Assembly: GCA_964399295.1 (NCBI GenBank)
Contig: CAYNQD010000001.1
Coordinates: 527,672-591,671, forward strand
From: an uncultured Candidatus Saccharibacteria bacterium
Lineage (GTDB): Bacteria > Patescibacteriota > Minisyncoccia > Phycocordibacterales > UBA918
Direction of reading: 5' to 3'
DNA length: 64,000 bases
Part shown: one piece after another, positions 9,293 to 62,734 of the stretch
Layout: every line of letters starts with the position of its first letter
Position numbering within the stretch: position 1 is the stretch's first letter
Translations under genes and position numbers: made by a program
The notes under the pieces: generated by a model
The model's input: only the letters and a program-made list of their open reading frames with translations
Told to the model about the DNA's origin: nothing
Databases searched by the model: none

Positions 9293-9295
9293 TAT

Positions 9296-10006: not shown

Positions 10007-10009
10007 ATT

Positions 10010-11158: not shown

Positions 11159-11166
11159 AATTACAT

Positions 11167-13757: not shown

Positions 13758-13779
13758 GTCGTCTGTTATTATATTAAGT

Positions 13780-15914: not shown

Positions 15915-15916
15915 AG

Positions 15917-16123: not shown

Positions 16124-16126
16124 AAG

Positions 16127-31051: not shown

Positions 31052-31096
31052 CTTTGTTTTGAATTTCATATCCTTCTAGTGTTATAATCAAAAGTA

Positions 31097-48827: not shown

Positions 48828-49433
48828 CTACTCCTGCGTCCCGTCCAAATTCACATCGTACATGATGCGTTCCTGTGCGGTCTTGTATTTCATGATTTCA
48901 TTCTCCTTAAACCAGATGGCGATTTCGCGCTCAGCCTCAGCTGGAGCATCAGAACAATGAATAAGATTTCGTACTGATCGATTTTCAAAAGAAGCGTGTC
49001 CGTATGAGTCGATAGTGTAATCTCCGCGAATAGTACCGACATCTGAGGTGGCTGGCTCCGTAGTACCCACAATCTTCATCACCACCTGCACTGCCTGATT
49101 ACCCTCCCAAACCATAGCCACCACCGGCCCAGCCGTCATGTATTTTACAATCATACGAATAATGTCACGACCATATTCAACCGGCTCCTTGTCAATCGGC
49201 AAACCCTGCGCCATCAAATCGCTCACGACATTAGTGCCTTTTTTTAAAAACCATTCTTCGGTTTTGTTGTAGTGCTGCACCAATCTTTCTTCATCCGGTG
49301 TAAACATTTTCATAGCCGTACACTTAAGGCCGGTTTGCTCAATGCGCTTTGTAACCTCCCCAACCAAACCTCTCTGCACGGTATCTGGCTTTAAGATAAT
49401 AAAAGTTCGTTCCTGATGTGGATATTTTTTCAT
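48828..49433 (-). CDS. ndk: Nucleoside diphosphate kinase
   Basis: ERTFIILKPDTVQRGLVGEV..., the catalytic-His context NLIHCSDA and RGDY. Confidence 0.85.
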   Translation of the reverse strand: MKKYPHQERTFIILKPDTVQRGLVGEVTKRIEQTGLKCTAMKMFTPDEERLVQHYNKTEEWFLKKGTNVVSDLMAQGLPIDKEPVEYGRDIIRMIVKYMTAGPVVAMVWEGNQAVQVVMKIVGTTEPATSDVGTIRGDYTIDSYGHASFENRSVRNLIHCSDAPAEAEREIAIWFKENEIMKYKTAQERIMYDVNLDGTQE

Positions 49434-49503
49434 AATAATTATATTGATTTAAAATAGTTTAGGCAGTATAGCGGTTTAAGGCTTAATATTCAAGCTCTAT
49501 CCT

Positions 49504-50109
49504 CTACTCATCCCACTTCTTCTTGAAAGTTATTACCCGATAAAAATAAGTAGCAAAAATAAGTGCCACTATCGCGTTTGATATTGGGTCTAGGTAATTA
49601 CCAATTTTGTCATGCTGGCTCTGCAAAAAATAACCCGTCAAAGCCAGCAAGGTAGACCAGAGAAGACTACCGATAAAAGAATATAGCAAAAATGACCACA
49701 CCGGCATCTTGGCAATACCGGCCGGTACTGAAATGAGGGTGCGAATGGTAGGAATCATCCGCCCAAACAACACCGCCTTGCGGCCATAACGATGAAACCA
49801 CACCTCGGCCGCGTCGATATCTTCCGGTGTCAGGGTCAAAGCACGGCCATAACGCAACGACAACCGCTTCAACCTCTTAATCCCAAACATCCTCCCCAAA
49901 ATATACCAAGGCAAAACTCCCGCCACCGTACCCAAAGACACCACCAATATCACCAAAAAAATATTCATCTCTCCCGCCGCGGCCGCGTATCCAGCTAGAG
50001 GAATAATCACCTCCGACGGTATCGGCGGAAAAATATTTTCCAAAACCATCAAAAAGAAAATACCGGCGTATCCGCCAGTTTCAATAATGTGAAGCGTCCA
50101 ATCAAACAT
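49504..50109 (-). CDS. DedA/SNARE-associated family membrane protein
   Basis: Polytopic, with the DedA signature region FGRMIPTIRTLISVPAG. Confidence 0.75.
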   Translation of the reverse strand: MFDWTLHIIETGGYAGIFFLMVLENIFPPIPSEVIIPLAGYAAAAGEMNIFLVILVVSLGTVAGVLPWYILGRMFGIKRLKRLSLRYGRALTLTPEDIDAAEVWFHRYGRKAVLFGRMIPTIRTLISVPAGIAKMPVWSFLLYSFIGSLLWSTLLALTGYFLQSQHDKIGNYLDPISNAIVALIFATYFYRVITFKKKWDE

Positions 50110-50129
50110 AATGGCTACATTCTAGCAGA
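50074..50129. repeat. Direct repeat copy 1 (56 bp; covers the dedA start codon, 12 codons and about 20 bp upstream)
   Basis: GCCAGTTTCAATAATGTGAAGCGTCCAATCAAACATAATGGCTACATTCTAGCAGA is identical to 51006..51061. Confidence 0.9.
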
Positions 50130-50338
50130 TAGCGGACAAAAGACCTCATGGTTTGGGTTTGATAATTGGAAGCGCACATGGAGAAACTGACTAAAGAAAA
50201 AAGACTAACGCGACAAAAGACCGTATTTATAGCCTCTTCAAAAGAATTTATATGTCAGTTGGATCAATCATATGTACTTATTGTATCAATATATATAAAT
50301 ATTATCAATCATTTAGGTATTGAAACGACCTTGACTCC

Positions 50339-50374
50339 ATCTACAAAAATAGAAATTGAATATATTGATTAAAC
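50339..50374 (-). repeat. Solitary CRISPR-type repeat, a near-identical copy of the 53.2-kb array repeat (1 mismatch)
   Basis: ATCTACAAAAATAGAAATTGAATATATTGATTAAAC differs from the array repeat ATCTACAAAAGTAGAAATTGAATATATTGATTAAAC by one G-to-A change (a G-U wobble in the hairpin). No second repeat lies within 2.7 kb. Confidence 0.7.
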
Positions 50375-50471
50375 CTGTGTGCCATCATCTTTAACAAGTA
50401 CAATTTGTAGATGACCCCGATTGAGTGCAGTAAGATTTCCTGCAAGACGAAGCTCAGCCATTCTAATCTCC

Positions 50472-50954
50472 TTATAATCTTGTTTTTATTATTCTAAGAT
50501 CGTGAATAATAATTCGTTCAATCTCAGTATATAAAATTTCAATACTTACGCTATGTACAAGTATTTTTGATTCTAGGTTAAGAAGCCAGCCATGCGCAAA
50601 AATGATGCCTTGTTTTTCAGTATTCCAGTATGCTGCAACAGAAAACGCAGGATTATTTATACCGTATATTCTCGTTGAATTTTCGCTTAATAAAGCTGAC
50701 TTTACTTCTAAACCTTGTGCAATCAACCAGGCTTCAGCTTCTTCCCAGCTGTCAAAATTAGAAGAGAGAAAATCTTTAAGTTGAGCCTTTGCTTCTTCTT
50801 CTGAAATACTATTCGACCATGCGACAAAATCAAAATCAGCATCAGTAGATAGTGTTTCTTTCTTTTGCATAAGTTGTTCTGCTGCAGTAATAGTACCCAA
50901 AAGAATTACTAAAGTTGATATTGTTATTAGTGTGATTTTAAAAGCATTTTTCAT
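50472..50954 (-). CDS. Secreted hypothetical protein (paralog of 51997..52500)
   Basis: It has a signal peptide. The first 80 residues are about 80% identical to the N-terminus of the 52015 gene (TITAAEQLMQKKETLS..FDFVAWSNSISEEEAKAQLKDFLSS). The duplicated dedA promoter lies directly upstream. Confidence 0.5.
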   Translation of the reverse strand: MKNAFKITLITISTLVILLGTITAAEQLMQKKETLSTDADFDFVAWSNSISEEEAKAQLKDFLSSNFDSWEEAEAWLIAQGLEVKSALLSENSTRIYGINNPAFSVAAYWNTEKQGIIFAHGWLLNLESKILVHSVSIEILYTEIERIIIHDLRIIKTRL

Positions 50955-51005
50955 ATCTTAATTAACTGCTTTGCTGTCATCATTTAAAAGCCAAGACAGC
51001 TTTAT

Positions 51006-51061
51006 GCCAGTTTCAATAATGTGAAGCGTCCAATCAAACATAATGGCTACATTCTAGCAGA
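51006..51061. repeat. Direct repeat copy 2 (56 bp)
   Basis: Identical to 50074..50129. On the minus strand it fuses the first 12 dedA codons to a 27-aa ORF that ends immediately upstream of the 50954 gene. Confidence 0.9.
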
Positions 51062-51202
51062 ATGCCGGCAAAAACACGATTTGGTTGTGTGGTGGAGGTG
51101 GCAAAAGAAAGATTAAACATAGCTAGGCAAGTTTGGAGTACAAAGAAGAACGCCGAGATTAGAGCTGGATATTTTATTTCGTTTTATTGGAAAATAATAA
51201 AA

Positions 51203-51826
51203 TTAGAACTCTCCAAACCGTTGATCAAGATTTATCACATAGTCTCTGAGGCGCAAAGTTCTTTCAGACGCAAGAGTTAAAGAACATCGCGTACTTTCCG
51301 TATTTCCTATAACCCTGTTGTGCAGCCAATAGGTGCTTGTTAACGAACATTCGGCATCAAAATACTGTTCCCATAAATTTTGAGAGGATTTAAGCGGTTC
51401 TGATAATTCATCAATACCATAAAGCGTGTCTAGGTATTTTTTCATTAAATCAAACCAAGCCTCTACTTCATAATTACCACAATTAACTTCTGTACATTCA
51501 AAAGCATAGGTTCCCACGCACTTTTCTGAAGAAATTCCAGTTTTCTTTTGATCCAAACAAGATTCGATGATTGAGACCGCCTTAGCAATTTCTACCTCGT
51601 TACGATCTGATAAGGCAATTTTTTGTCCACGGGGCGTATCTTCCTGAAATGATTCAGAGATTTCTTGGTTTTGGTAGTATTGAGATAAAGTTTTTTCTTC
51701 TCTTGAAATGCCAGAGTCATTATCAACACTTAACTGTTTACCACTTTCAACTATTTCTAAAAAATAAAAAGTTAGTCCGAAACCAACCAACATAACTAGG
51801 GCAATGATTTTCATTGATTTATTCAT
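51203..51826 (-). CDS. Membrane-anchored or secreted Cys-containing hypothetical protein (possibly DUF1311/LprI-like)
   Basis: 207 aa with an N-terminal TM/signal helix. The C-terminus carries conserved Cys and Tyr (EQYFDAECSL...RCSLTLASERTLRLRDYV). Confidence 0.35.
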   Translation of the reverse strand: MNKSMKIIALVMLVGFGLTFYFLEIVESGKQLSVDNDSGISREEKTLSQYYQNQEISESFQEDTPRGQKIALSDRNEVEIAKAVSIIESCLDQKKTGISSEKCVGTYAFECTEVNCGNYEVEAWFDLMKKYLDTLYGIDELSEPLKSSQNLWEQYFDAECSLTSTYWLHNRVIGNTESTRCSLTLASERTLRLRDYVINLDQRFGEF

Positions 51827-52014
51827 AATATGAAATAGAATATCATATAATTTAAGAGGTATGAATAAATTGCTTGAAAAAAATTGTACATAAGCACAAT
51901 TGATTCCGGTTAAATTTTCCTTGTGTTTTTGTCAGCGCAAGTGTTATTGCAAAAGAATTGTTGTGAAGAGTCAGGAAGTTTACATAAGTATCGAGTGTGG
52001 TATTATTCATTAAT

Positions 52015-52500
52015 ATGAAAAGTGTTTTAAAAAGTACGCTTATAACAATATCGGCCCTAGTCATTCTTTTGGCCACCATTACTGTAGCAGAACAACTTAT
52101 GCAAAAGAAGGAAACGCTCTCTGTTGAGGCTAATTTTGATTTTGTTGCTTGGTCAAATAGTATTTCAGAAGAAGAAGCAAAAGCTCAGCTTAAGGATTTC
52201 CTATCTTCTTTTAATAATTGGGAAGAGGTTGAAAGCTGGCTGGGTGCACAGGGTTTCCGGGTAGAGAAACCTTTATTAACTCCTGAGAATACAGCAGAAA
52301 TTTACGGTATTGATAATAAACCTATATTATTTACTGCGGTAGCAGGCTGGTCTCCAAAAAGGCAAGGCATTATTTTTGCAAATAATTTGATTATTAAAAT
52401 TGAATCAAAGTTGTTTGTATATGGTGTAAATATTGGATTTTTATATTCTGAGGATCCTTTCTTAATTCAGCGAATTAATATAACAAAAACACGACAATAA
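52015..52500 (+). CDS. Secreted hypothetical protein (paralog of 50472..50954)
   Basis: See the paralog entry. It is the first gene of a three-gene plus-strand cassette that ends in the CRISPR mini-array. Confidence 0.5.
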   Translation: MKSVLKSTLITISALVILLATITVAEQLMQKKETLSVEANFDFVAWSNSISEEEAKAQLKDFLSSFNNWEEVESWLGAQGFRVEKPLLTPENTAEIYGIDNKPILFTAVAGWSPKRQGIIFANNLIIKIESKLFVYGVNIGFLYSEDPFLIQRINITKTRQ

Positions 52501-52505
52501 GGAGA

Positions 52506-52802
52506 GTGGGTATGGCAGAACTTCGTTTGGCATCTAGTTACGCCAGCATAGACACGTTCCAAGCTTGGTTAGAGTTTCAGGGTTTTGAAGTCACTGCTCG
52601 TTTTGAACACCAGAATGCAGATCCCATGGGGGCATGGATTGGTCTCAGTGGTAGCCGTAATCATGCTGAGAATAATGGTCGCTTGTTTAGCGTAAGCGTG
52701 TTTCAGAAATTTTTAGGTCAGGATCATAGTATGTCGGTTTTTGCGCAGTTCGATCATACCGATAACGTAATCGGCATACAAACTGCATTTAACACTAAAT
52801 AG
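52506..52802 (+). CDS. Small hypothetical protein
   Basis: 98 aa (MGMAELRLASSY...). Its N-terminus is echoed in the 30-aa remnant on the minus strand at 50368..50460. Confidence 0.45.
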   Translation: MGMAELRLASSYASIDTFQAWLEFQGFEVTARFEHQNADPMGAWIGLSGSRNHAENNGRLFSVSVFQKFLGQDHSMSVFAQFDHTDNVIGIQTAFNTK

Positions 52803-52813
52803 GGGGAAATGAA

Positions 52814-53164
52814 GTGGCGACAGTAAATTTGGCAGGTAATTTGATTACTGGAATTAGTGTACTGGGTGTTGGTCACCTACAGCTCGTTCGGATTGATGGA
52901 ACAAATCAATTGGAAATTGAAGTTCAGGCGCCCACTGATTTTGGGATGTTTGGAGGTGAATGGGTATATCATCAAAGGGATCATACAGATCCCAATCACA
53001 CGAGCGCATTCATACCTAATGCCAACGGCGTGTCCCCCAATCCAAACGAATATGCGATTACAGAAATAGACGTTGGGAATCGTAATCCAGACGAAGTATG
53101 GCAAGTATTAACTAGGATATATGATGAATTTCGTTTGAAAGGAGACTTTGAATATATTGATTAA
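52814..53164 (+). CDS. Small hypothetical protein whose last 6 codons lie inside the terminal CRISPR repeat
   Basis: 116 aa (MATVNLAGNLITG...GHLQLVRIDGTNQ...). The C-terminus ...GDFEYID* is encoded by TTTGAATATATTGATTAA, which is the 3' 18 nt of the repeat. Its homologous N-terminus is found in the 50.4-kb remnant. Confidence 0.45.
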   Translation: MATVNLAGNLITGISVLGVGHLQLVRIDGTNQLEIEVQAPTDFGMFGGEWVYHQRDHTDPNHTSAFIPNANGVSPNPNEYAITEIDVGNRNPDEVWQVLTRIYDEFRLKGDFEYID

Positions 53165-53352
53165 ACCTCCTTGCGGATAAGCAGGTGCTCGTATCTACAA
53201 AAGTAGAAATTGAATATATTGATTAAACACACGCGTCAACGAATCTTTGGCGGTATCTACAAAAGTAGAAATTGAATATATTGATTAAACTCAACACTAA
53301 AGGACGAATACGCCTGATCTACAAAAGTAGAAATTGAATATATTGCAGCCAA
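53148..53352 (-). CRISPR. Orphan CRISPR mini-array: 3 spacers (26 nt each) and 36-nt repeats of Cas12a/type V-A-like sequence
   Basis: Identical 36-nt repeats at 53193-53228 and 53255-53290 (ATCTACAAAAGTAGAAATTGAATATATTGATTAAAC on the plus strand). A third copy at 53317-53352 matches for 29 nt and then diverges. A truncated 19-nt copy lies at 53148-53166. Unique spacers sit at 53167-53192 (CTCCTTGCGGATAAGCAGGTGCTCGT), 53229-53254 (ACACGCGTCAACGAATCTTTGGCGGT) and 53291-53316 (TCAACACTAAAGGACGAATACGCCTG). The minus-strand repeat is GTTTAATCAATATATTCAATTTCTACTTTTGTAGAT, which ends in the Cas12a crRNA handle AAUUUCUACU-UUU-GUAGAU. Confidence 0.7.
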
Positions 53353-53446
53353 TTTCCAAATAAGATTTATACACAATAATGGTACTATGTGGTTCTTGTG
53401 GTGTTAATAATTTTTTATAATAGAGAAGACACAAAAAACGAAACTT

Positions 53447-54379
53447 ATGATAAAAAATAATACACATGTCGTACTGGGAGCTTCGGGTGCTATTGGCCAA
53501 GGAGTAGTCAAGGCCTTGCAGGAAAAAGGTCTGGTGATAAGAGCTGTTGAGAGATCAAAACAAGTTGCGGGCATAGAGACGGTTTTGGCTGATCTCAGCG
53601 ATGAAAAGCAAGCGCGGGAGGCGATAGTGGGCGCGAGCCATGTTTATCTTTGCGTCGGCCTACCGTACAACACTAAAATTTGGCAAAGCGGATGGCCGCG
53701 GCTTATGCGCTCCGTCATCAATGCCTGTGCAGAGGCAAACGCCAAGTTGATTTTCTTTGATAATGTATATATGTACGGACCTTCTCTGTCGGTGCCATTT
53801 ACTGAAAATCACCCACAAAACCCAACAACAAAGAAAGGGATGGTGAGGAAACAGGTAGCGGATTTGTTACTGCAAGCGCACAATTCCAGCCAGGTGCAAG
53901 CGGTTATCGGGCGGTCGGCTGATTTTTACGGCCCTAAAGCCGTCAACAGCCAGCTTTACATAAAATTTATCGAACGCATCAAACAAGGGAAAAATCCACA
54001 ATGGCTCGGCCAGCCAGACCAGCCACACACCTACTCCTACACACTAGACAATGGGCGAGCGCTAGTAGAGCTGGCGCTTGACGACACCGCTTACGGACAA
54101 GTCTGGCATTTGCCAGTTGGTAAGCCCATTGCGATTGGAGAAATCCTTGGCCTCATCAATAAGAAGCTCGGGACTTCATACAAAGTTTCTTATTTACCCC
54201 GACCTTTACTCGGTCTAATGTCACTCTTTATTCCACCAATTAAAGAGGTCAAAGAAATGCTGTATCAATTTGACAATCCATACATCATGTCTGACCAAAA
54301 ATTTCGAGATCGCTTTCCGGATTTTAAAACGACCAGCTATGAGGAGGGTTTGGCTGCCATGATTGAGAGTTTTGAGTAA
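53447..54379 (+). CDS. NAD-dependent epimerase/dehydratase-family (SDR) protein
   Basis: The N-terminal Rossmann motif is VLGASGAIGQGVVKAL. It is 310 aa. Confidence 0.7.
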   Translation: MIKNNTHVVLGASGAIGQGVVKALQEKGLVIRAVERSKQVAGIETVLADLSDEKQAREAIVGASHVYLCVGLPYNTKIWQSGWPRLMRSVINACAEANAKLIFFDNVYMYGPSLSVPFTENHPQNPTTKKGMVRKQVADLLLQAHNSSQVQAVIGRSADFYGPKAVNSQLYIKFIERIKQGKNPQWLGQPDQPHTYSYTLDNGRALVELALDDTAYGQVWHLPVGKPIAIGEILGLINKKLGTSYKVSYLPRPLLGLMSLFIPPIKEVKEMLYQFDNPYIMSDQKFRDRFPDFKTTSYEEGLAAMIESFE

Positions 54380-54533
54380 GGAGATGAGCTTTATTTAGCT
54401 GAAGTATTAAAGCAGCCAGATACGCGTGCGTTTCTTTTTCGTTTGACTTTTGCGATGAAAATTGTAGGATAATCGAGCAATGATGTTGCTTTGGCAACAC
54501 TGGTTATTGAGTTATTTTACAAAGGAGAAAAAG

Positions 54534-55001
54534 ATGAGTTCCACCACAGAAGTAGAAGAAGATACTTTTTTCAATGCGACTTTCAGCAACTCCATTACGG
54601 AAGCGGTTGCTTTCGTGTCGTGTCTGGTAAATGGAAAACTGCCATTTGACATAAAGACCCTTCTGGAAACGCATGAAGAGTATATGGAAAATCACCCGAC
54701 AACCTATGATGAATATTGGCTGTTTGGGAAAGCTTTTATCAAAAAAACATCCCAGATAAGGAGAGTCCTGAAACACAAACGTATATCCGAAATAAAGGGT
54801 GGTCGGGTTATCGCAAAATTGGACAAAAGATCAAAAGATGGTCAAATCTTGACGCGTACTATCTATATTACTTTCACAGACGGTACTCACGTCCAGCTTG
54901 ATTATGCTTTCAATATTTTCGACAATGATAAGTGGAGTGTTTCACAACTCACTTACAAAGATGTCGAAAATAAAAAATCGCTTGTCCTAATAATGTATTA
55001 A
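54534..55001 (+). CDS. Hypothetical protein
   Basis: The start is taken at MSSTTEVEED, with SD AAAGGAG 6 nt upstream. No motif was recognised. Confidence 0.4.
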   Translation: MSSTTEVEEDTFFNATFSNSITEAVAFVSCLVNGKLPFDIKTLLETHEEYMENHPTTYDEYWLFGKAFIKKTSQIRRVLKHKRISEIKGGRVIAKLDKRSKDGQILTRTIYITFTDGTHVQLDYAFNIFDNDKWSVSQLTYKDVENKKSLVLIMY

Positions 55002-55261
55002 TATCTATTAGGGACAAAAAAACAGCACGTCATTATCGACATGCTGTTTTATTTTTTAGAACTACAGAAACCAAGTGGGTTCATCGCACAAAAATGCGTT
55101 CTACCCTAGCAAATTTTGCAGAGTCACCACCAAAGCCGCCTGCGCCAACAGCATTCCCGCCACCCACTTAATCATATCAACCCGTTGATTTTTCATCTCC
55201 AATTTTAGTTCTTGGATATTTTCTTGGAGTATGCTTTTCATAGGATTTTAATATTCCAGCT

Positions 55262-56032
55262 CTACTTAGTCAAAATCACTGGCCCCTTTTCGGTAATCGC
55301 TACGGTGTGCTCAAAGTGCGCCGAGATGGAGCCGTCTTTGGTGTAGACACTGTAGCCATCGCCTTCGTCATCGAAATAGACATCTTTCTTTCCCAAATTT
55401 ACAATCGGCTCAATAGCATACACGTGCCCCACTTCAATCTTTGGCCCAGTGCCGGCTTTGCCAAAATTTGGAATTGTTGGTTCTTCATGCACGGCATAGC
55501 CCACCCCATGCCCACACAAAACTTCCACTACCGAAAATCCACGTGCTTCCACAAATTCCTGAATGGCAGCGCTAATATCACCAATCCTGTTGCCCGCTTT
55601 GGCCATTTTTATGCCGTGAGCTAGGGCTTCTTGCGTAGTGCTGAGTAGCTTCTTAGCTTCCGCGGAAATTTTTCCCACGCCCACTGTGATTCCCGAATCA
55701 ACAATCATTCCCTTGTAGCCAATCGACATGTCGATATTGACGACGTCACCTTCTTTCAAAACCACCCCCTCACTGGGAATGCCATGCTGCACACAATCAT
55801 TGACCGACACACACACGGCCGCCGGATAAGGATAATCGGCAAAAGTCGGATGATAACCTAGCAGTACCGGCTCAGCGCCGTATTTTTCAACCAGTTCCAT
55901 CGCCTTATCATCAATATCAAGAGTGGTGTTGCCCACCACCGCTTCCTTGGCTAATTCTTTCAAGCACTTAGCCAGAATAGCACCAGCCTCTTTTAAAATT
56001 TCAATTTCCTCAGGAGTTTTTTTTGTTATCAT
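55262..56032 (-). CDS. map: Type I methionine aminopeptidase
   Basis: The pita-bread fold metal ligands sit in ...DVVNIDMS..., HGVGYAVHEEP, and EPIVN/EHT. Confidence 0.85.
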   Translation of the reverse strand: MITKKTPEEIEILKEAGAILAKCLKELAKEAVVGNTTLDIDDKAMELVEKYGAEPVLLGYHPTFADYPYPAAVCVSVNDCVQHGIPSEGVVLKEGDVVNIDMSIGYKGMIVDSGITVGVGKISAEAKKLLSTTQEALAHGIKMAKAGNRIGDISAAIQEFVEARGFSVVEVLCGHGVGYAVHEEPTIPNFGKAGTGPKIEVGHVYAIEPIVNLGKKDVYFDDEGDGYSVYTKDGSISAHFEHTVAITEKGPVILTK

Positions 56033-56034
56033 AG

Positions 56035-56631
56035 TTATTTTAATTTAAGCGCGGAAATGATTTGCTCATGCACACCATCAATCGTGTCGTCGCCTTTTAT
56101 ATCATGTACGGTTACATTGGCGATATTTTTATAATATGCAATTACCGGCAAGGTGTCTTCACGATACCATCGTAAGCGATTCTCGATTGATTCTAAAGTA
56201 TCATCGTCTCTGGCTCTTTCCAACATCCGCGCTTTTACCACCTCTTCCGGAGTATCGAGATTGATAACGTGAATATTTTTCCTTTCAAAAAAATCGAAAG
56301 CGCCGGCTAGAGTTTCGGCTTGGGCTACGGTCCGGGGGAAACCATCAATCAACAAATGACTTCCCGGATCAAGCTCACTGAGCATTTGTTGACCCCACAG
56401 AGCATAAGTAAGGAAATCAGGCTGCAAAACACCCGCTTGCAAGGAGTCGGCGATTTTGTTTTGCGCGAAAGTTTGGCGGGGGGCGGTCAAGCTTCTAAAT
56501 AAGCTGCCAGTCTGTACATCCACCAGCTTTCTATCACCATCAAGCGCGGTGATGATATTTTTAATCTTGCTAATCTGAGTGCCTTTGCCGCTGCCTTGCG
56601 GCCCGACAAAAATTAAAGTTAGTGGTTGCAT
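56035..56631 (-). CDS. adk: Adenylate kinase
   Basis: The P-loop is FVGPQGSGKGTQ, and LIDGFPRTVAQAE is the NMP-binding motif. Confidence 0.85.
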   Translation of the reverse strand: MQPLTLIFVGPQGSGKGTQISKIKNIITALDGDRKLVDVQTGSLFRSLTAPRQTFAQNKIADSLQAGVLQPDFLTYALWGQQMLSELDPGSHLLIDGFPRTVAQAETLAGAFDFFERKNIHVINLDTPEEVVKARMLERARDDDTLESIENRLRWYREDTLPVIAYYKNIANVTVHDIKGDDTIDGVHEQIISALKLK

Positions 56632-56646
56632 ATTTTTACTGGAAAG

Positions 56647-57243
56647 TTATGATGAATAAACTCGATTTTTTAGCGATTCAATCAACCGGCAAAATTCTTC
56701 TTTTGCTGGGGTGAAATCATTGGTGGAATTATCAATAATAATATCAGCAATGTCTTTTGAGGCTACTTCCACCAAATAGCGTTCATAGCGGGAATTGAGC
56801 TCATCTTCACTCATCGGCGCGCGCCCAAGGGCGCGCGCCTTTAACACCTCCCAACCACCGGCATCTATAAAAACAGTCGTGATGTGCTCCGCAAGAATAA
56901 GCTGGTGAAGCTGCTCCACTCCCTGCACGTCTATTTCCGCAATAACAATCTGGCCATTTTCCAAGCGCTGGACAATTTCGCTTTTCAGAGTCCCGTATTT
57001 ATTGGCTCCAAATACCGCCCACTCCAAAAAATCTCCAGCCGCAACTTTTTGTTCAAATTCAGCTGGTGTTAGAAAATAATAATCCTTACCCTCAATCTCA
57101 CCTGGGCGCATGGCTCTAGTGGTACAAGAAACCGTCACGTACAAATCGGGAATCGTAGCCAAAGCCTCTTTTATTAAAGTGCCTTTGCCGCTACCCATTG
57201 GAGCCATTACCACCAAGACATGTCCTTTTATATTGCCTATCAT
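56647..57243 (-). CDS. gmk: Guanylate kinase
   Basis: VVMAPMGSGKGTL...VSCTTRAMRPGEIEGKDYYFL...EWAVFGANKYGT matches the Gmk family. The start is placed at the internal Met (MIGNIKG). Its position between secY and adk is unusual. Confidence 0.75.
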   Translation of the reverse strand: MIGNIKGHVLVVMAPMGSGKGTLIKEALATIPDLYVTVSCTTRAMRPGEIEGKDYYFLTPAEFEQKVAAGDFLEWAVFGANKYGTLKSEIVQRLENGQIVIAEIDVQGVEQLHQLILAEHITTVFIDAGGWEVLKARALGRAPMSEDELNSRYERYLVEVASKDIADIIIDNSTNDFTPAKEEFCRLIESLKNRVYSS

Positions 57244-57304
57244 GCCATCCGAGAGTAGCAGTTTTTTGTCTATTTCGCAACACAATTTATGTTATGCTTG
57301 GGCC

Positions 57305-57363
57305 GGAGGGAGAAAATTAAAGAGGCGTGCCCAAAGGGCACGCCTCTTTAATTTTCTCCCTCC
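57305..57363. repeat. Perfect 28-bp-stem inverted repeat (hairpin) between secY and gmk
   Basis: GGAGGGAGAAAATTAAAGAGGCGTGCCC-aaa-GGGCACGCCTCTTTAATTTTCTCCCTCC has arms that are exactly reverse-complementary. No U-run follows on the secY transcript strand. Confidence 0.85.
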
Positions 57364-57371
57364 TTTACCTT

Positions 57372-58643
57372 CTAATACTCCCGCATCGACACCTGCGCGT
57401 CCAAACGACGAATCAAGTCTAGTACCACCTGTACCACGATCAAGACCGCTGTTCCGCCCATGGCTAAAGCCGCGATACCGGTAACCGCCTGCATACCAAT
57501 CGGAATCACCGCCACTATACCCAAGAAAGTAGCGCCAACCAGAGTAAGTCTGGTAATCAAACCACCTAAATATTCAGAAGTCTGTGTTCCCGGACGAATA
57601 CCCGGAATATACGAACCATTACGCTGCAGATTTTTGGCGACGGAATCCGGATCGAAAGTAATTGCTGTATAAAAGAAAGTAAACAGAAATACCAAGACAA
57701 AATACACTCCTCCGTATACCCATTGATTCGCCAGAATGGCGGTCACGGTTTCGTTTGCTCCAGCTACCCAAGGCAGATTGAAAGCCGATAGAATATTCAA
57801 CACCATCTGTGGCAACAATAGAATCGACAGCGCAAAGATGATCGGAATTACACCAGCCTGATTGATGCGCAGCGGCAGGTATGAAGAGCTGCCACCGTAA
57901 GTCATTCCGCCTCGACTTTGCTTGGCTGAGGTTATTGGCACCGGACGTTCAGCTTCAGTCATCAGCACCACCGCGTAAATAATGAGCAAGGCCACAATCA
58001 CAAATCCAACATAAAGCGGGAGTTGTGATGGGTCAAATGAAAACGCCAATTGACTCACGGTTGAAGGTAGCGTTGCCACGATACCGGCAAAGATGATGAT
58101 TGACACACCGTTTCCAATACCATATTCAGTTATGAGTTCACCAATCCACATCAAAAGCACCGAACCAGCTACAATCAAAACGACGTTAACAGCAAAGTCA
58201 AAAGTGGATAGCCCTACAATCACGCCTTGGCTTTGCAAAAGAGTCAAAAAACCAAACCCTTGCAAAATCGCCAAAGGCAAAGTCAAAAGCCGACTGTATT
58301 GAGTAAATTTAGCCCTTCCAGCCTCACCTTCTTCAGTGTACAAGCTCTTGACCTTCGGTGACATCACCGTCATAAGCTGCATGATAATGGAAGCGGTAAT
58401 GAAAGGCCCAACACCCAACATCACGATTGAGAGATTGGCCAAGCCGCCTCCGGAAAAGATATTCAAGAGACCGAGAAATTGATTGTCTGAGAAGAACTGT
58501 TGTAGCACAGCCTGATCAACTCCAGGAATTGGAATTGAAGCCAAGAGTCTAAAAACTACCAAAGCCCCCAAGATAATCAAAACTCGATTACGGATGGACG
58601 GTTCGGTAAAAATTAGAGTGAGCTTACGAAAAAATGTTTGCAT
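57372..58643 (-). CDS. secY: Preprotein translocase subunit SecY
   Basis: 423 aa with 10 TM helices and a conserved SecY N-terminus and plug region. Confidence 0.9.
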   Translation of the reverse strand: MQTFFRKLTLIFTEPSIRNRVLIILGALVVFRLLASIPIPGVDQAVLQQFFSDNQFLGLLNIFSGGGLANLSIVMLGVGPFITASIIMQLMTVMSPKVKSLYTEEGEAGRAKFTQYSRLLTLPLAILQGFGFLTLLQSQGVIVGLSTFDFAVNVVLIVAGSVLLMWIGELITEYGIGNGVSIIIFAGIVATLPSTVSQLAFSFDPSQLPLYVGFVIVALLIIYAVVLMTEAERPVPITSAKQSRGGMTYGGSSSYLPLRINQAGVIPIIFALSILLLPQMVLNILSAFNLPWVAGANETVTAILANQWVYGGVYFVLVFLFTFFYTAITFDPDSVAKNLQRNGSYIPGIRPGTQTSEYLGGLITRLTLVGATFLGIVAVIPIGMQAVTGIAALAMGGTAVLIVVQVVLDLIRRLDAQVSMREY

Positions 58644-58655
58644 ACCCTATATTAC

Positions 58656-59108
58656 CTATTTTGTAACAACTCCACCAGCTTTTTCAAGCTTTTCCTGGGC
58701 CGACTTTGATACCTGACAATTCTCAATCGTTAATTTCTTGGTTATTTCTCCATTTCCTAAAACCTTCACACTTGGAGCCTTTTTGCCCACGGCAGAAATT
58801 ACTTTTTTGGCTACCAAAGTCTTTGGTGAAACCACCTCTCCGGCTGAGAAGATGGTTTCGAGTTTGGACAGATTTACCACTACCACTACCTCTTTCTCGC
58901 TATTTACGGTACGAGCGCGATTCTTTCCGTGTCCGCGCAATTTAGGAAGTTTCTTAATCTGATCGCGCATTTCCGGACGCATACTGTTTCCAGCTCTGGC
59001 AGTCTGTCCTTTACCGCCACGACCTGAGGTCTTGCCTCGTTTTCCGCCGCGACCAATGCGCTTGGTTTCTTTGCGCGGTGAAGTTGGTTTTAATTCATGT
59101 AGCTGCAT
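58656..59108 (-). CDS. rplO: 50S ribosomal protein L15
   Basis: The Gly/Arg-rich N-terminus RIGRGGKRGKTSGRGGKGQ is typical of L15. Confidence 0.85.
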   Translation of the reverse strand: MQLHELKPTSPRKETKRIGRGGKRGKTSGRGGKGQTARAGNSMRPEMRDQIKKLPKLRGHGKNRARTVNSEKEVVVVVNLSKLETIFSAGEVVSPKTLVAKKVISAVGKKAPSVKVLGNGEITKKLTIENCQVSKSAQEKLEKAGGVVTK

Positions 59109-59109
59109 A

Positions 59110-59760
59110 CTAATTTTTTCTTAGAAGTTTAAGTGCTTCGACAGCGGCACGGGCGTTGTTAAGCTTGTTCTTGCTGCGTGAAAATATCTTCGCGGTTACG
59201 TCTTTTACACCAGCGTGTTCTAGCACGGTACGGACTGAAGACCCCGCCACGAGTCCCCGACCAGGAGCCGGCATAATCATGACTTCACTGGAAGCATATT
59301 TGGTATGAACATCGTGAGGAATATGACTGTCTTTGTTTATAGTGACAATAATCATATTCTTCTTAGCGTCACGCACAGCCTTTTCAATGGCCATTTGCGT
59401 GTCGCCAGCCTTACCGATACCAACTCCCACTCGACCTTTCTTGTCACCAATAACTATCGCCACCGAAAAACTGAAACGACGACCTCCAGCCATCACGCGA
59501 GTCACGCGACGAATGCTGATAATTTTTTGATCAAATTCCGGACGAACCCGCTCTGGGCGGCCACCGCGTCGTGGTCGTCGTTGATTTCTTCGATCTCCTC
59601 CCCCCTGACCTCTGCGACTATGCCCGCCGCGTTCACTGGAAACGGCTTCAGTTTTTGTCTCTGATTCTGGCACAGCTGGTGCATCGGTTGAAGCCACTAT
59701 GGCTTCAGTTTCTGATGTTACGTCATCAGTTGTAGCTTCCGGCTGTTTTGTTTCTGACAT
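59110..59760 (-). CDS. rpsE: 30S ribosomal protein S5, with an acidic/Arg-rich N-terminal extension
   Basis: RRVTRVMAGGRRFSFSVAIVIGDKKGRVGVGIGKAGD...VMIMPAPGRGLVAG matches S5. Its stop is 1 bp from the rplO start, so no L30 gene lies between them. Confidence 0.85.
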   Translation of the reverse strand: MSETKQPEATTDDVTSETEAIVASTDAPAVPESETKTEAVSSERGGHSRRGQGGGDRRNQRRPRRGGRPERVRPEFDQKIISIRRVTRVMAGGRRFSFSVAIVIGDKKGRVGVGIGKAGDTQMAIEKAVRDAKKNMIIVTINKDSHIPHDVHTKYASSEVMIMPAPGRGLVAGSSVRTVLEHAGVKDVTAKIFSRSKNKLNNARAAVEALKLLRKN

Positions 59761-59793
59761 TGTTATTTTCTTACACTTCTTATAAACCTCTCC

Positions 59794-60144
59794 TTAAAAT
59801 ACCAATCCCCCGCCACGTGCGCTTTCAGCAAGCGACGCGACAGTTCCTTGATAACGAAAACCTCCGCGGTCAAAGACCACTTTCTCTACTCCCAGCGCCT
59901 TAGCCTTCTTGGCGATATCAACACCAACCGTGCCGGCGCGTTCAGTCAAAGTCTTGCCCTCGGCCTTTCTGGAATCAGCAGCGGCTAAAGTCTTGCCCGC
60001 CACGTCGTCTATCAATTGCGCGTAGATGAATTGATTGCTTCTAAAGACCGCCAAACGCGGACGCTCAGCCGTTCCAGACACCTTAGCTCGAATTCGATTG
60101 TGACGAGAAACTCGCTTCTTATTTTTATACTGTGTTTTTTCCAT
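59794..60144 (-). CDS. rplR: 50S ribosomal protein L18
   Basis: [34 protein letters not shown] matches L18. Confidence 0.85.
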
Positions 60145-60165
60145 AGCTCAAATAGAATTACGGGC

Positions 60166-60696
60166 TTACGCAGCCTTTTTACCTTGTTTGCGAATAATAA
60201 ACTCTCCTCGATATCGAATTCCCTTACCTTTGTACGGTTCCGGTTTTCGGACTTTGCGCACATTAGCCGCAAACTGTCCGAGCAAATCCTTGTCCGCTCC
60301 AGTCAAGGTAATCGCGCTCTTTTCCACCACCGCTGAAATTCCTTCCGGAATATCAAGTGGCACCGGATGCGAATAACCCATGTTGAGCACCAGCGCATTG
60401 CCTTTTACCTCAGCCTTATAACCAACTCCTTCAATATCAAGAATCTTGGTAAAGCCTTCGGTTACGCCTTTTATCATGTTGCGCACATGTGAGGCGTAGG
60501 TTCCCCACAAAGCCGGGGCGTTTGGAGTTTTTTCTGGAGACAGAGTCAAAATATTACCTTCAATTTTGAAAGTCACGTCTGATCTTACTTCTCTTTTAAG
60601 AATACCTTTTGTTCCGGTTACCGTTAGTAATCCATCATCACAGGTTACTGTGACACCGGCAGGGATGGTTACTGGTTGTTTTCCTAATCGACTCAT
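60166..60696 (-). CDS. rplF: 50S ribosomal protein L6
   Basis: MSRLGKQPVTIPAGVTVT... has the two-domain L6 fold. Confidence 0.9.
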   Translation of the reverse strand: MSRLGKQPVTIPAGVTVTCDDGLLTVTGTKGILKREVRSDVTFKIEGNILTLSPEKTPNAPALWGTYASHVRNMIKGVTEGFTKILDIEGVGYKAEVKGNALVLNMGYSHPVPLDIPEGISAVVEKSAITLTGADKDLLGQFAANVRKVRKPEPYKGKGIRYRGEFIIRKQGKKAA

Positions 60697-60699
60697 ATC

Positions 60700-61092
60700 T
60701 TACCAAATAATAAAGAGCTGTTCTCCGCCCACGTTTTGCGCTCGGGCTTCCTCGTTGGTGAGAATACCGGCTGGCGTAGAAAGAAGCATATGCCCTTTAC
60801 CAAATTTTACTTTGTGAATATTTGCGACCTTTGTGTACAAGCGGCGACCTGGCTTTGAGATACGCTTGACACCATCAATGCGGTGCCGTCCGTCCTCATA
60901 CTTTAGAGTTACCACTAGTGACTTCTGTATTTTTTTTCCTTGCGGTTCGGCTTTTTCTATATAGCCAGACGCGACCAACTTATCTGCAATAGCATGACGA
61001 AGCTTGGAATAAGGCATTTCTACCTCTTTCTTTCCCACGGCTCCGGCATTTTTCAAGCGGATAATCATGTCGCCAATAATGTCTCCTACCAT
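60700..61092 (-). CDS. rpsH: 30S ribosomal protein S8
   Basis: [16 protein letters not shown]...LSTPAGILT matches S8. Confidence 0.9.
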
Positions 61093-61271
61093 GATGATTT
61101 CTTTATTCCTGGTATATGTCCCTCATGTGCCATCTCGCGAAAACAGATTCGGCAGGCATCGAAGTCCCGCATGTATCCGTGTTTGCGACCGCACAGCTTG
61201 CAGCGTCTCACGACTCTGGAAGCAAATTTTGGTTCGCGCGAAGCGCGAACCTTCACTGAAATTTTCGCCAC
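61086..61271 (-). CDS. rpsZ: 30S ribosomal protein S14 type Z (zinc-binding)
   Basis: 61 aa with a [23 protein letters not shown] zinc-ribbon. It overlaps rpsH by 7 nt. Confidence 0.85.
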
Positions 61272-61607
61272 TTTATTATTGCTGTTTATGGGATAGTATC
61301 ACGTAGTCTTTCGTGACTTACCCCCTGATAATCGCCCAAGCTCAGCTCCCGGACAGAATTGACAAAAGCGAACTTTGCGCCAAATCTGTACCAAAAGTGA
61401 GCCTAAGCAGCGCGGAATTGGATTTTCCAAAGAGATTACCCAAAACCCCCGCCTTGCCCGCAAGAGTACAGAAATTTTAAGATAAAGTCAATGTTTTGTC
61501 CCTGCCAGCTCTTGACATAGAGTTATATATATACTAGTCTTAAAAGAGGTTCGGGGATTGAAAATCAATTTCACTCCCCTATTTTTGTGTTTTTTGGAGA
61601 AATAAAA

Positions 61608-62018
61608 ATGAAAAAAGTTATTTTTATAGCAATCACGGTTATTATTTTTCACTCACCAGCAACCTATGCTGCTGAGTGGAGCAATACTCGAGAAGAAGGT
61701 GTGTCTATACACACCCATAAATACGAAAACTCTGCCGGCTGGTGCAGAGTTAGACACAATCTAAAAGAACACACGATAGAGATCTTGGTTCGAGATAACA
61801 ATCTCAACCTGAATCAACATATAGTCATACAAAAAAACACATGGGTTCAGAGAAAACACATGTGGATTACAAAAACCTCCAAAACATGGAGAGGTGACCG
61901 TTTAGACAGTAGAACAGAGGGCCCGGTAGACTTGTTCTACCTGGCCTGTAGAGAGCCAGCAAAAAACCTCCCCAAAGAGGTCAGATCCCTTTTTGGAGGG
62001 CACTGGGGCATCAAATGA
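61608..62018 (+). CDS. Secreted hypothetical protein
   Basis: A GGAG SD is followed by MKKVIFIAITVIIFHSPATYA (signal peptide). It is 136 aa. Confidence 0.45.
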   Translation: MKKVIFIAITVIIFHSPATYAAEWSNTREEGVSIHTHKYENSAGWCRVRHNLKEHTIEILVRDNNLNLNQHIVIQKNTWVQRKHMWITKTSKTWRGDRLDSRTEGPVDLFYLACREPAKNLPKEVRSLFGGHWGIK

Positions 62019-62067
62019 AAAAGGTGTGGGATTTATCAAAATCCCACACCTTTATTTTTTTATTCAG
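62019..62067. terminator. Bidirectional rho-independent terminator
   Basis: AAAGGTGTGGGAT-ttatcaaa-ATCCCACACCTTT is followed by TATTTTTTTATT. It lies between the convergent genes 61608..62018 (+) and 62074..62622 (-). Confidence 0.7.
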
Positions 62068-62073
62068 GTTCTT

Positions 62074-62622: not shown

Positions 62623-62734
62623 CCTCTGATTATAACACGATTTCCGTCATATTTTGGACTCAATTCACCCACCCAAACAAACAGTCCCAAATCTAAATGG
62701 GGCTGTTTGCTGATATTTTTGTGTTCTTAATTAC

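What the first reader, a model, noticed from the sequence alone, without database searches (positions are those of the whole stretch)
53148..53352. Orphan CRISPR mini-array with a Cas12a (type V-A) style repeat and no cas genes in 64 kb
The array has two identical repeats plus one that is degenerate at its leader-proximal end. The 36-nt repeats read on the minus strand as GTTTAATCAATATATTCAATTTCTACTTTTGTAGAT. The 3' 19 nt, AAUUUCUACUUUUGUAGAU, form the UCUAC/GUAGA pseudoknot-hairpin handle that Cas12a recognises and processes. The repeats are separated by three unique 26-nt spacers of roughly 50% GC, higher than the host genome. On the minus strand the arrangement is an AT-rich leader at 53353-53446, then a repeat with an intact handle and a spacer, three times, then a truncated terminal repeat lacking the handle. 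That is exactly what a functional Cas12a array looks like. Yet there is no cas12a, cas1, cas2 or cas4 anywhere in the window, and the flanks are housekeeping genes. Either the effector is encoded elsewhere, or this is a mobile-element-derived mini-array or a decoy. Cas12a-type systems would also be noteworthy in a CPR-like genome.
Basis: seen in the sequence. Interest (0 to 1): 0.9.

Follow-up and report, generated by a model that had tools for sequence, protein, structure and literature searches.

The report
Eroded orphan Cas12a-type CRISPR array remnant
This is a real but broken three-spacer leftover of a Cas12a-type CRISPR array, plus one detached repeat, in a variable gene island of a small-genome (CPR) bacterium with no cas genes within 64 kb; this kind of decaying or orphan array is already known, so it is only moderately interesting.

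Summary
On the minus strand at 53352-53148 lie three repeat units with intact Cas12a handles, three unique 26-nt spacers and a 19-nt repeat stump. The 36-nt repeat is 100% identical to repeats of complete cas12a-cas4-cas1-cas2-array loci in Candidatus Kaiserbacteria metagenome contigs. Its 3' 25 nt recur in many CPR Cas12a arrays.

No cas gene or cas fragment is in the window.
- A full solitary repeat lies 2.8 kb away (50374-50339).
- The flanks are a 5.8-kb lineage-specific island between map and ndk, not housekeeping genes.
- The canonical leader is absent, and both array ends are breakpoints, one of which truncates a gene.
- The closest relative (Ca. Nomurabacteria CP060227.1) keeps one broken copy of the repeat at the same hotspot and in the same orientation.

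Best reading: a decaying remnant of a type V-A array long resident at this site. It could still yield crRNAs if a Cas12a acts in trans, but it cannot acquire spacers. Whether the rest of the genome encodes Cas12a could not be tested. No spacer has a convincing target. Type V-A systems in CPR bacteria, and their degradation, are already published. Interest about 0.3.

The parts
53317..53352 (-). R1', the first repeat unit. The 5' 8 nt are replaced (TTGGCTGC instead of GTTTAATC). The 3' 28 nt, including the Cas12a handle, are intact.
53291..53316 (-). Spacer S1, CAGGCGTATTCGTCCTTTAGTGTTGA
   Evidence: No 20-nt match in IMG/VR.
53255..53290 (-). R2, a perfect 36-nt repeat
53229..53254 (-). Spacer S2, ACCGCCAAAGATTCGTTGACGCGTGT
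   Evidence: A 21-nt contiguous match to a small conserved ORF in two IMG/VR phage contigs, with no T-rich PAM. An unrelated 21-nt match at E=2 in a Rhizobium plasmid shows that a match of this length can arise by chance.
53193..53228 (-). R3, a perfect 36-nt repeat
53167..53192 (-). Spacer S3, ACGAGCACCTGCTTATCCGCAAGGAG
   Evidence: No match in IMG/VR.
53148..53166 (-). R4, a repeat stump of nt 1-19 only, with no hairpin. This is a rearrangement junction.
   Evidence: Homology to the C-family gene resumes immediately beyond it.
53353..53446 (-). AT-rich (GC 0.26) upstream gap standing in for a leader. It is not homologous to the cognate leader.
53379..53407 (-). Weak sigma-70-like match TTAACA-17-TACCAT (9 of 12), about 27 nt upstream of R1'
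   Evidence: This is a consensus match only.
50339..50374 (-). Solitary full-length repeat with one mismatch. The stem is kept through a G-U pair.
   Evidence: Confirmed in an independent assembly.
50313..50338 (-). Spacer-like sequence after the solitary repeat, GGAGTCAAGGTCGTTTCAATACCTAA
   Evidence: No match in the window, in IMG/VR or in the cognate cas loci.
52814..53164 (+). Gene C (116 aa), truncated. Homology to the 143-aa homolog P0318 ends at residue 110. The last codons and the stop come from the reverse complement of R4.
50375..50461 (-). C' fragment: 29 N-terminal codons of a C-family paralog, cut off by the 5' end of the solitary repeat
50441..50956 (.). Left arm of an inverted duplication. 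The partner is 52013-52532, 73% nt identity. The genes are A' and A.
51006..51073 (.). 68-bp direct repeat, 94% identical to 50074-50141, which covers the start of the DedA-like gene. The two copies bracket the block that holds the solitary repeat.
49434..55261 (.). Lineage-specific accessory island between ndk (48828-49433) and map (55262-56032). It holds a DedA-like gene, A', D, A, B, C, the array, an epimerase, a 173-aa ORF and the remnant of a 92-aa gene.

Best explanation
This is a genuine type V-A (Cas12a-class) CRISPR array reduced to a fragment. It has three spacer units whose repeats keep the complete crRNA handle, a 19-nt repeat stump, and one detached full repeat 2.8 kb away.

It lies in a rearranged, lineage-specific island between map and ndk of a Paceibacteria/Parcubacteria (CPR) bacterium. 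A V-A array seems to have occupied this hotspot since before this organism split from Ca. Nomurabacteria CP060227.1, because that relative keeps one broken copy of the same repeat at the same place and in the same orientation.

The adjacent cas operon and the canonical leader are gone. Both ends of the fragment are breakpoints inside repeats.

Inferred mechanism: if the fragment is transcribed from the AT-rich gap, and if a compatible Cas12a is present, Cas12a would cut upstream of each AAUUUCUACUUUUGUAGAU handle. That would release three crRNAs, and possibly a fourth from the solitary repeat. Without a leader-repeat junction and cas1-cas2 it cannot acquire spacers. It is most likely a decaying orphan relic.
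For: Shown:
- Repeat anatomy and hairpin.
- 36/36 identity to the repeats of cas12a-(ParDE)-cas4-cas1-cas2-array loci with 17-26 repeats and 25-30-nt spacers, mostly 25-27 nt. Their Cas12a is 99% identical to PIW96672.1 of Ca. Kaiserbacteria.
- The 3' 25 nt are shared by many arrays in genomes mostly labelled CPR. Four of these arrays lie beside ORFs with the Cas12a Pfam domains.
- No cas gene or fragment in 64 kb.
- The cognate leader is absent and R1' is broken at its 5' end.
- R4 is joined to a truncated gene.
- The map-ndk interval differs in three relatives, and none of them has cas genes there.
- The relative L052 has GTTTAATCAATGTATTCAATTTCTACTTTTTGTTAT at the same site and in the same orientation. 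It matches 29 of the first 30 nt, while flanking homologous DNA is only about 76% identical.
- The Cas1, Cas2 and Cas4 clusters (90% identity) of the cognate system were read in full. None has a member on the 594,086-bp contig that carries the window's proteins.

Precedent: degrading V-A systems with small arrays and lost cas genes are reported in Patescibacteria (PMC13059738). 12% of CRISPRs are orphan and 23% are distant from cas genes (PMC7145637).

Inferred, not shown: ancestry in situ, loss of the cas operon from this site, and any transcription or processing.
Against: - Two repeats are perfect, all three handles are intact, and the solitary repeat's only change preserves pairing. The relative's remnant is also better conserved than neutral flanks. 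A relic drifting for a long time should look worse, so the array may still be used or was used until recently.
- In L052 the remnant starts only 45 nt after the gene that follows map. That leaves no trace of a former cas operon at this site.
- Only 64 kb of a contig of at least 594 kb could be read, so a Cas12a elsewhere in the genome is not excluded.
- Handle-sharing Cas12a proteins are as little as 30% identical to the cognate one. A divergent effector would therefore have escaped the checks based on 90% clusters.
Confidence: 0.58

Rival explanations
1. It is a functional 'distant' array. A cas12a operon elsewhere in the genome, outside the 64-kb window, transcribes and processes it in trans, so the three spacers (and perhaps the solitary unit) still give immunity.
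For: - Perfect R2 and R3, intact handles in R1', R2 and R3, and a pairing-preserving change in the solitary repeat.
- The repeat is conserved beyond neutral expectation compared with the relative.
- Distant arrays whose repeats are compatible with cas genes in trans are common: 23% of CRISPRs (PMC7145637).
- Cas12a processes its own pre-crRNA (established knowledge), so nothing else is needed.
- A weak promoter-like site lies upstream.
Against: - No canonical leader, and the first repeat is broken.
- Both ends of the array are rearrangement junctions.
- No member of the cognate Cas1, Cas2 or Cas4 clusters lies on the 594-kb contig.
- None of the 120 closest Cas12a relatives lies on a contig of that size. 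This is weak evidence, because compatible Cas12a proteins can be much more divergent.
- No spacer has a convincing target.
Confidence: 0.3
2. It is a mini-array or solitary repeat derived from a mobile element and acts against CRISPR. It would work either as an RNA anti-CRISPR decoy that soaks up Cas12a (Racr-like), or as a crRNA-like regulator that redirects Cas12a (Cracr or CreR-like). It would have arrived with the island.
For: - Solitary V-A repeat units on mobile elements are known inhibitors: RacrVA1-3 (PMC10651486) and viral V-A Cracr RNAs (bioRxiv 10.1101/2024.10.29.618823).
- An IMG/VR phage contig (L025) carries a solitary unit with the same 25-nt handle.
- The array lies in an accessory island, part of which has low GC (0.32-0.36), close to that of the cognate Kaiserbacteria contigs.
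Against: - The island has no integrase, phage, plasmid or acr-like genes. Its proteins are rare orphans with at most marginal PHROG hits (one at E=0.0015) and no informative Pfam hit.
- No spacer, including the pseudo-spacer, matches the cognate cas12a locus or its promoter region.
- No promoter-like site lies directly upstream of the solitary repeat on its strand.
- The relative keeps a remnant at the same chromosomal site, which favours vertical residence.
Confidence: 0.08
3. It is not CRISPR at all, but a chance or gene-internal tandem repeat.
For: Only that the reverse complement of the stump R4 supplies the last codons of an ORF.
Against: - 36/36 identity to repeats next to cas12a operons.
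- Exact 62-nt period with unique spacers.
- No match in 100 shuffles.
- The ORF overlap is a truncation junction, not native coding sequence.
Confidence: 0.01

Closest known systems
Type V-A CRISPR-Cas12a loci of Candidatus Kaiserbacteria (Cas12a PIW96672.1 of the CG_4_8_14_3_um_filter_38_9 genome; the same system on JGI contigs Ga0210057_1009704 and Ga0210028_1005160)
   Same: - Identical 36-nt repeat.
- Similar spacer length (25-30 nt there, mostly 25-27; 26 nt here).
- The same 3' hairpin handle.
   Different: - Those loci have cas12a, cas4, cas1, cas2, a conserved leader and 17-26 repeats. The window has none of the genes, an unrelated upstream region and broken end repeats.
- The host differs: its LepA, MurJ, DivIC and glutaredoxin clusters at 90% identity show no member on the window's contig (15 of 28 LepA members listed).
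- GC is 0.33-0.35 there against 0.42 here.
- No spacer is shared.
Orphan and distant CRISPR arrays (Bernheim et al. 2020, PMC7145637)
   Same: A short array more than 20 kb from any cas gene whose repeat can be typed to a known subtype. Such arrays are interpreted as either used in trans or decaying.
   Different: Whether it is 'distant' or 'orphan' in their sense cannot be decided from 64 kb. Here the decay is directly visible: broken end repeats, a lost leader and a truncated neighbouring gene.
Degrading Cas12a system of the patescibacterium Strigamonas methylophilicida (PMC13059738)
   Same: A patescibacterial V-A system with a small array of 4-6 spacers, a lost adaptation module and, in one genome, lost cas12a. 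It is read as an ancestral system under degradation.
   Different: A different lineage (Absconditicoccaceae against Paceibacteria) and a different repeat. Here there is also a detached solitary repeat, and an orthologous remnant in a sister species.
Solitary repeat units / RNA anti-CRISPRs (Racr; Camara-Wilpert et al. 2023, PMC10651486) and viral crRNA-like regulators (Cracr; bioRxiv 10.1101/2024.10.29.618823)
   Same: The unit at 50374-50339 is a solitary V-A repeat with a competent hairpin and no partner within 100 bp.
   Different: It is not on a recognisable mobile element. It has no adjacent promoter or acr gene and no complementarity to a cas promoter. It is more simply read as a detached piece of the same array.

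Membership tests
Type V-A (Cas12a) CRISPR array | A repeat of about 36 nt ending in the AAUUUCUAC-loop-GUAGAU handle (5-bp stem, 4-5-nt loop, one 3' nucleotide) | tested here: met
   Sequence. Fold of -4.8 kcal/mol with the stem at nt 22-26 and 31-35. Alignment with Cas12a-associated repeats.
Type V-A (Cas12a) CRISPR array | Regularly spaced repeats separated by unique spacers of about 23-30 nt | tested here: met
   Period of 62 nt with three unique 26-nt spacers.
Type V-A (Cas12a) CRISPR array | The same repeat is found next to cas12a in other genomes | tested here: met
   The exact 36-mer lies beside cas12a-cas4-cas1-cas2, identified by Pfam domains RuvC_1, REC1, Cpf1_PI, Cas1 and Cas2. The 25-nt handle also lies beside Cas12a in L004, L013, L018 and L024.
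Type V-A (Cas12a) CRISPR array | cas12a (with or without cas4, cas1, cas2) adjacent to the array | tested here: not met
   No hit better than E=0.1 with tblastn, HMM or phmmer on the six-frame translation of all 64 kb. Pfam scans of the large ORFs show no Cas effector.
Type V-A (Cas12a) CRISPR array | A conserved leader abutting a perfect first repeat (competence for adaptation) | tested here: not met
   The cognate leader ...GGCTTGGTTGAGCCATAGGGAGA is absent, and R1' has lost its first 8 nt.
Type V-A (Cas12a) CRISPR array | Spacers match mobile elements next to a 5' T-rich PAM | tested here: inconclusive
   Only S2 has a match. It is 21 nt contiguous (22 of 26 overall) in two related IMG/VR contigs, with a 5' flank of TCCA or CCCA. 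An unrelated 21-nt match at E=2 in a plasmid shows this can be chance. S1, S3 and the pseudo-spacer have no match.
Type V-A (Cas12a) CRISPR array | Transcription, and processing by Cas12a into crRNAs | not testable with these tools
   Only a weak promoter-like match. No RNA data.
Orphan CRISPR array (no cas in the whole genome) | No cognate cas cluster anywhere in the genome | not testable with these tools
   Only 64 kb of a contig of at least 594,086 bp is readable. Indirect evidence: the cognate Cas1, Cas2 and Cas4 clusters have no member on that contig.
Mini-array borne on a mobile element | Located on a virus, plasmid or integrated element, with spacers aimed at competing elements | tested here: not met
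   No integrase, phage or plasmid genes in the 5.8-kb island. A chromosomal remnant sits at the same site in a relative. No targets were identified.
RNA anti-CRISPR (Racr) / solitary repeat unit | A solitary repeat on a mobile element, directly downstream of a promoter and often next to acr genes | tested here: inconclusive
   Solitary status is met. A mobile-element context and a promoter were not found. Inhibition cannot be tested.
crRNA-like regulators (CreR / CreA / Cracr) | A spacer partially complementary to a cas or toxin promoter of the cognate locus | tested here: not met
   No seed of 10 nt or more and no match of 18 of 26 or better for any of the four spacers in ten cognate cas loci. 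The window genome's own cas locus, if it has one, is unknown.

The most novel reading that the evidence does not exclude
The three-spacer fragment and the solitary repeat could be kept by selection in a bacterium that has no Cas12a of its own. Their conservation (two perfect repeats, a pairing-preserving change, and an orthologous remnant more conserved than its flanks) would then reflect one of two uses. One is use with a Cas12a supplied from outside the chromosome, for example by a co-resident element or a partner cell of this episymbiont. The other is a role as an RNA decoy that blunts Cas12a of related CPR bacteria or their phages. In addition, the layout of a 19-nt stump, then 2.77 kb, then a full repeat could record an insertion into a CRISPR repeat by an unknown mechanism.
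Probability: 0.07. Interest if true: 0.75.

Novelty: new member of a known kind. Interest (0 to 1): 0.3.

Why it matters
It adds one well-resolved example of how a Cas12a CRISPR locus decays in a reduced CPR genome. The leader and cas genes are gone. The end repeats are broken at rearrangement junctions. One repeat has become detached. A sister species keeps a single dead repeat at the same hotspot.

It also shows that the crRNA handle of this group of CPR-associated V-A systems is identical across Cas12a proteins that are only 30-45% identical to each other. Such remnants could therefore be read by many effectors.

It does not reveal a new system, and it does not change what is known about Cas12a.

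Tried and rejected
- Self-targeting. None of the four spacers matches elsewhere in the window, even with up to 7 mismatches or as a seed only.
- Regulatory (Cracr/CreR-type) targeting of the cognate cas12a loci. No match.
- Spacer targets. Six IMG/VR scans using 5' and 3' 20-mers gave only the weak S2 hit. GenBank phages gave nothing, and plasmids gave one chance-level 21-mer.
- Finding the source genome's cas genes. The 594-kb NCBI contig could not be retrieved; only short Logan contigs were returned. Cluster look-ups gave only indirect negative evidence. Cognate Cas proteins that were traced came from other samples: JGI 3300025288 and 3300025826, ENA ERZ27293370 and ERZ27293392, and SRR29054608.
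- Spacer GC as a clue to the donor. Cognate arrays have a mean spacer GC of 0.40 (sd 0.11). The window's 0.46-0.58 is not decisively different.
- Reading R4 as a full-length degenerate terminal repeat. Rejected, because the sequence beyond nt 19 is homologous to the C-family gene.
- A transposon-like insertion. There are no terminal inverted repeats and no transposase in the 2.77-kb block.
- Rfam. No CRISPR-DR or other family was found at the array.
- Island proteins. No informative Pfam or PHROG family. Protein A has only 16 representative relatives among 1.84 billion proteins. Protein C has a single homolog.
Full report
**Observation**

Read on the minus strand, window 53352-53148 holds four units at an exact 62-nt period:
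- R1' (53352-53317): first 8 nt replaced, last 28 nt intact.
- R2 (53290-53255) and R3 (53228-53193): perfect copies of GTTTAATCAATATATTCAATTTCTACTTTTGTAGAT.
- R4 (53166-53148): the first 19 nt only.

They are separated by three unique 26-nt spacers with GC 0.46, 0.54 and 0.58, against 0.42 for the window. None of 100 dinucleotide-preserving shuffles contained the repeat. The repeat folds into a 5-bp stem with a 4-nt loop one nucleotide from its 3' end, at -4.8 kcal/mol. This is the geometry of the Cas12a crRNA handle (established knowledge of type V-A).

A fifth copy lies alone at 50374-50339 on the same strand, 2.8 kb 'downstream'. It is full length with one mismatch. The change (C to T) keeps the stem paired through G-U.

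Independent Logan assemblies from several sequencing runs reproduce three stretches at 100% identity: 53261-64000, 51006-53220 and 51035-50100. The R1'/upstream junction, the R4/gene junction and the solitary-repeat junction are therefore not artefacts of one assembly.

**Is it a Cas12a-type repeat?**

Yes, by direct association.
- The 3' 25 nt occur in 24 stretches of species-representative genomes, mostly labelled CPR/Patescibacteria, in arrays of up to 74 copies.
- Four adjacent ORFs of 1309-1441 aa carry the Cas12a domains RuvC_1, REC1 and Cpf1_PI, with or without NUC.
- The exact 36-mer occurs on five JGI metagenome contigs.
- There it forms arrays of up to 26 repeats with 25-30-nt spacers (mostly 25-27), directly downstream of cas12a (1316-1324 aa), a ParDE pair on the other strand, cas4, cas1 and cas2.
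- That Cas12a is 99% identical to PIW96672.1 of Candidatus Kaiserbacteria bacterium CG_4_8_14_3_um_filter_38_9.

**cas genes in the window**

There are none.
- tblastn with eight diverse Cas12a proteins and with Cas1, Cas2, Cas4, ParE and ParD found nothing better than E=0.1.
- A profile built from 60 Cas12a sequences, and phmmer with Cas1, Cas2 and Cas4, all run against the six-frame translation, also found nothing better than E=0.1.
- The largest ORF (6167-9292, 1041 aa) is a Type ISP restriction enzyme.
- The other long ORFs are housekeeping or defence genes unrelated to CRISPR.

**Who is the host?**

SecY places the organism among Paceibacterota/Parcubacteria. The nearest named relatives are Ca. 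Nomurabacteria CP060227.1 (90% identity), 'Pacebacteria' and Parcubacteria OLB19. It is not the Kaiserbacteria lineage with the identical repeat.
- The 90%-identity clusters of that organism's LepA, MurJ, DivIC and glutaredoxin show no member on the 594,086-bp contig that carries the window's proteins (15 of 28 LepA members were listed).
- The same holds for its Cas1, Cas2 and Cas4 clusters, which were read in full.
- GC differs as well: 0.33-0.35 against 0.42.
- Identity of the repeat does not prove recent transfer. The 25-nt handle is invariant among Cas12a proteins that are only 30-45% identical to the cognate one.

**Context**

The conserved backbone is secY-gmk-adk-map ... ndk-RNase J. 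In three relatives (L052, L053 and L057) the map-ndk interval holds 1.0-2.9 kb of unrelated genes, different in each, and no cas genes.

In the window this interval is 5.8 kb (49434-55261). In order of falling coordinate from map to ndk, with each gene's strand in brackets, it holds:
- a 5'-truncated remnant of the 92-aa gene that follows map (-);
- a 173-aa ORF (+);
- an NAD-dependent epimerase (+);
- the array (-);
- genes C, B and A (+);
- gene D (-);
- gene A' (-);
- a 29-codon C' fragment (-);
- the solitary repeat (-);
- a DedA-like gene (-).

A to D are rare orphan proteins. A and A' belong to a 73%-identical inverted duplication. A 68-bp direct repeat brackets the block that holds the solitary repeat.

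**The array's ends are breakpoints**

Upstream, the conserved leader of the cognate loci is absent and R1' has lost its first 8 nt.

Downstream, gene C aligns with its only homolog (P0318, 143 aa) up to residue 110. After that it reads FEYID-stop from the reverse complement of the 19-nt stump. Both the repeat and the gene are therefore cut at one junction.

The solitary repeat likewise cuts a C-family paralog after codon 29.

The layout is stump (nt 1-19), then 2,773 bp, then a full repeat. This is what an insertion into a repeat with a 19-nt duplication would leave. However, the block has no terminal inverted repeats and no recombinase, so I leave this unexplained.

**Evidence for long residence at this site**

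L052 (CP060227.1) has GTTTAATCAATGTATTCAATTTCTACTTTTTGTTAT at 14677-14712.
- It lies in the same map-ndk interval and in the same orientation relative to secY.
- It starts 45 nt after the 92-aa gene and runs straight into a terminator hairpin.
- The 3' arm of its stem is destroyed.
- Its first 30 nt match the window repeat at 29 positions.
- The neighbouring homologous DNA is only 76-78% identical. My binomial estimate of so few changes under that divergence is about 0.003.

The simplest reading is that a V-A array sat here in the common ancestor and stayed under constraint in both lineages for much of the time since. It then decayed to a single dead repeat in one lineage and to the present fragment in the other. 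Repeated acquisition at the same hotspot is the alternative.

**Function**

Shown: three units keep everything that Cas12a retains in a mature crRNA.

Inferred: with transcription from the AT-rich gap and a compatible Cas12a in trans, three guides would be produced, and perhaps a fourth from the solitary repeat. The only support for transcription is a 9-of-12 promoter-like match at 53407-53379. The stump contributes no handle. Adaptation is impossible without the leader junction and cas1-cas2.

Targets:
- S2 matches 21 contiguous nt (22 of 26) in a conserved 71-aa ORF of two related IMG/VR contigs with GC 0.44-0.48.
- Its 5' flank is TCCA or CCCA rather than T-rich.
- A 21-nt match to an unrelated Rhizobium plasmid at E=2 shows that such a hit can be chance.
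- Nothing else matched.

**Rival readings**

(a) A functional distant array served by a cas12a elsewhere in the genome. This is plausible given the conservation and cannot be tested here. I give it 0.3.

(b) A decoy or regulator derived from a mobile element.
- V-A Racrs and Cracrs exist.
- A phage contig (L025) carries a solitary unit with this handle.
- But the island has no mobile-element genes.
- No spacer is complementary to the cognate cas loci.
- The orthologous remnant argues for chromosomal residence.
I give it about 0.08.

(c) Not CRISPR. This is refuted.

**Comparison with what is known, and verdict**

- Arrays more than 20 kb from cas genes make up 23% of all CRISPRs, and orphan arrays make up 12%. 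Both kinds are short on average (PMC7145637).
- Cas12a in CPR bacteria is established (PMC6509639). From my own knowledge, two of the original Cpf1 orthologs came from Parcubacteria and Peregrinibacteria.
- A degrading patescibacterial V-A system with 4-6 spacers and lost cas genes has been described (PMC13059738).

This finding is a further, well-resolved case of that kind, in another lineage. Novelty is 'new member of a known kind' and interest is about 0.3.

Noticed in passing
window 1281-18550: An apparent integrated defence island next to tRNA-Ser(GCT) at 1281-1370. It holds Shedu (SduA_C, 2223-3587, minus strand), a large serine recombinase (3629-5056, minus strand), DUF3644 (5022-6074), a Type ISP restriction-modification enzyme (6167-9292), DUF2779 (12255-13757) and a ParB_N plus N6_N4 methylase (17267-18550).
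   Followed up: partly
L025 11671-11706 (minus strand), IMGVR_UViG_3300037067_013626: A phage contig (DNA polymerase, QueD/QueE/GTP cyclohydrolase, head closure; GC 0.34) carries a solitary unit ending in the same 25-nt Cas12a handle. It lies in an AT-rich intergenic region after a TATAAT-like box. This is a candidate type V-A RNA anti-CRISPR, possibly of a phage infecting CPR bacteria.
   Followed up: partly
L052 14677-14712 (CP060227.1, Ca. Nomurabacteria): A single decayed copy of the window's repeat sits at the orthologous map-ndk site and runs straight into a terminator hairpin.
   Followed up: yes
window 50074-50141 and 51006-51073; 50441-50956 and 52013-52532: A 68-bp direct repeat (94% identity) that duplicates the start of the DedA-like gene, and a 73%-identical inverted duplication of the A/A' genes. 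Together they point to repeated rearrangement of the island.
   Followed up: partly
window 30979-31052: A tRNA-Ile with anticodon TAT, an uncommon way for bacteria to decode AUA.
   Followed up: no
L001, L018, L021, L024 (CAZPBK010000002.1, CAZFUL010000004.1, CAYUTM010000009.1): Contigs labelled 'uncultured Gammaproteobacteria' (GC 0.33-0.37) carry long arrays with the same repeat seen in the CPR-labelled genomes, plus Cas12a. The bins may be mislabelled, or the system may have been transferred between phyla.
   Followed up: no
L010 2353-2515, L011 5202-5237, L014 5940-5975: Other CPR genomes hold one or two isolated copies of the same handle with no long ORF next to them. Detached V-A repeats may be recurrent in this group.
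   Followed up: no
L042 3726-4275, L046 5863-6412: A ParD/ParE toxin-antitoxin pair is embedded on the opposite strand between cas12a and cas4 in every copy of the cognate locus.
   Followed up: no
window 55107-55247: The 92-aa gene that follows map in the relative survives here only as residues 41-87, a 46-aa ORF. This is another deletion scar at the hotspot.
   Followed up: yes
window 61089-62622; L052, L053, L057 between rplE and rpsN: The ribosomal-protein operon is interrupted by different accessory genes between L5 and S14 in each relative. In the window, which ends before L5, a Fic gene (62074-62622) and a 136-aa ORF lie upstream of S14. This looks like a second variable hotspot.
   Followed up: no
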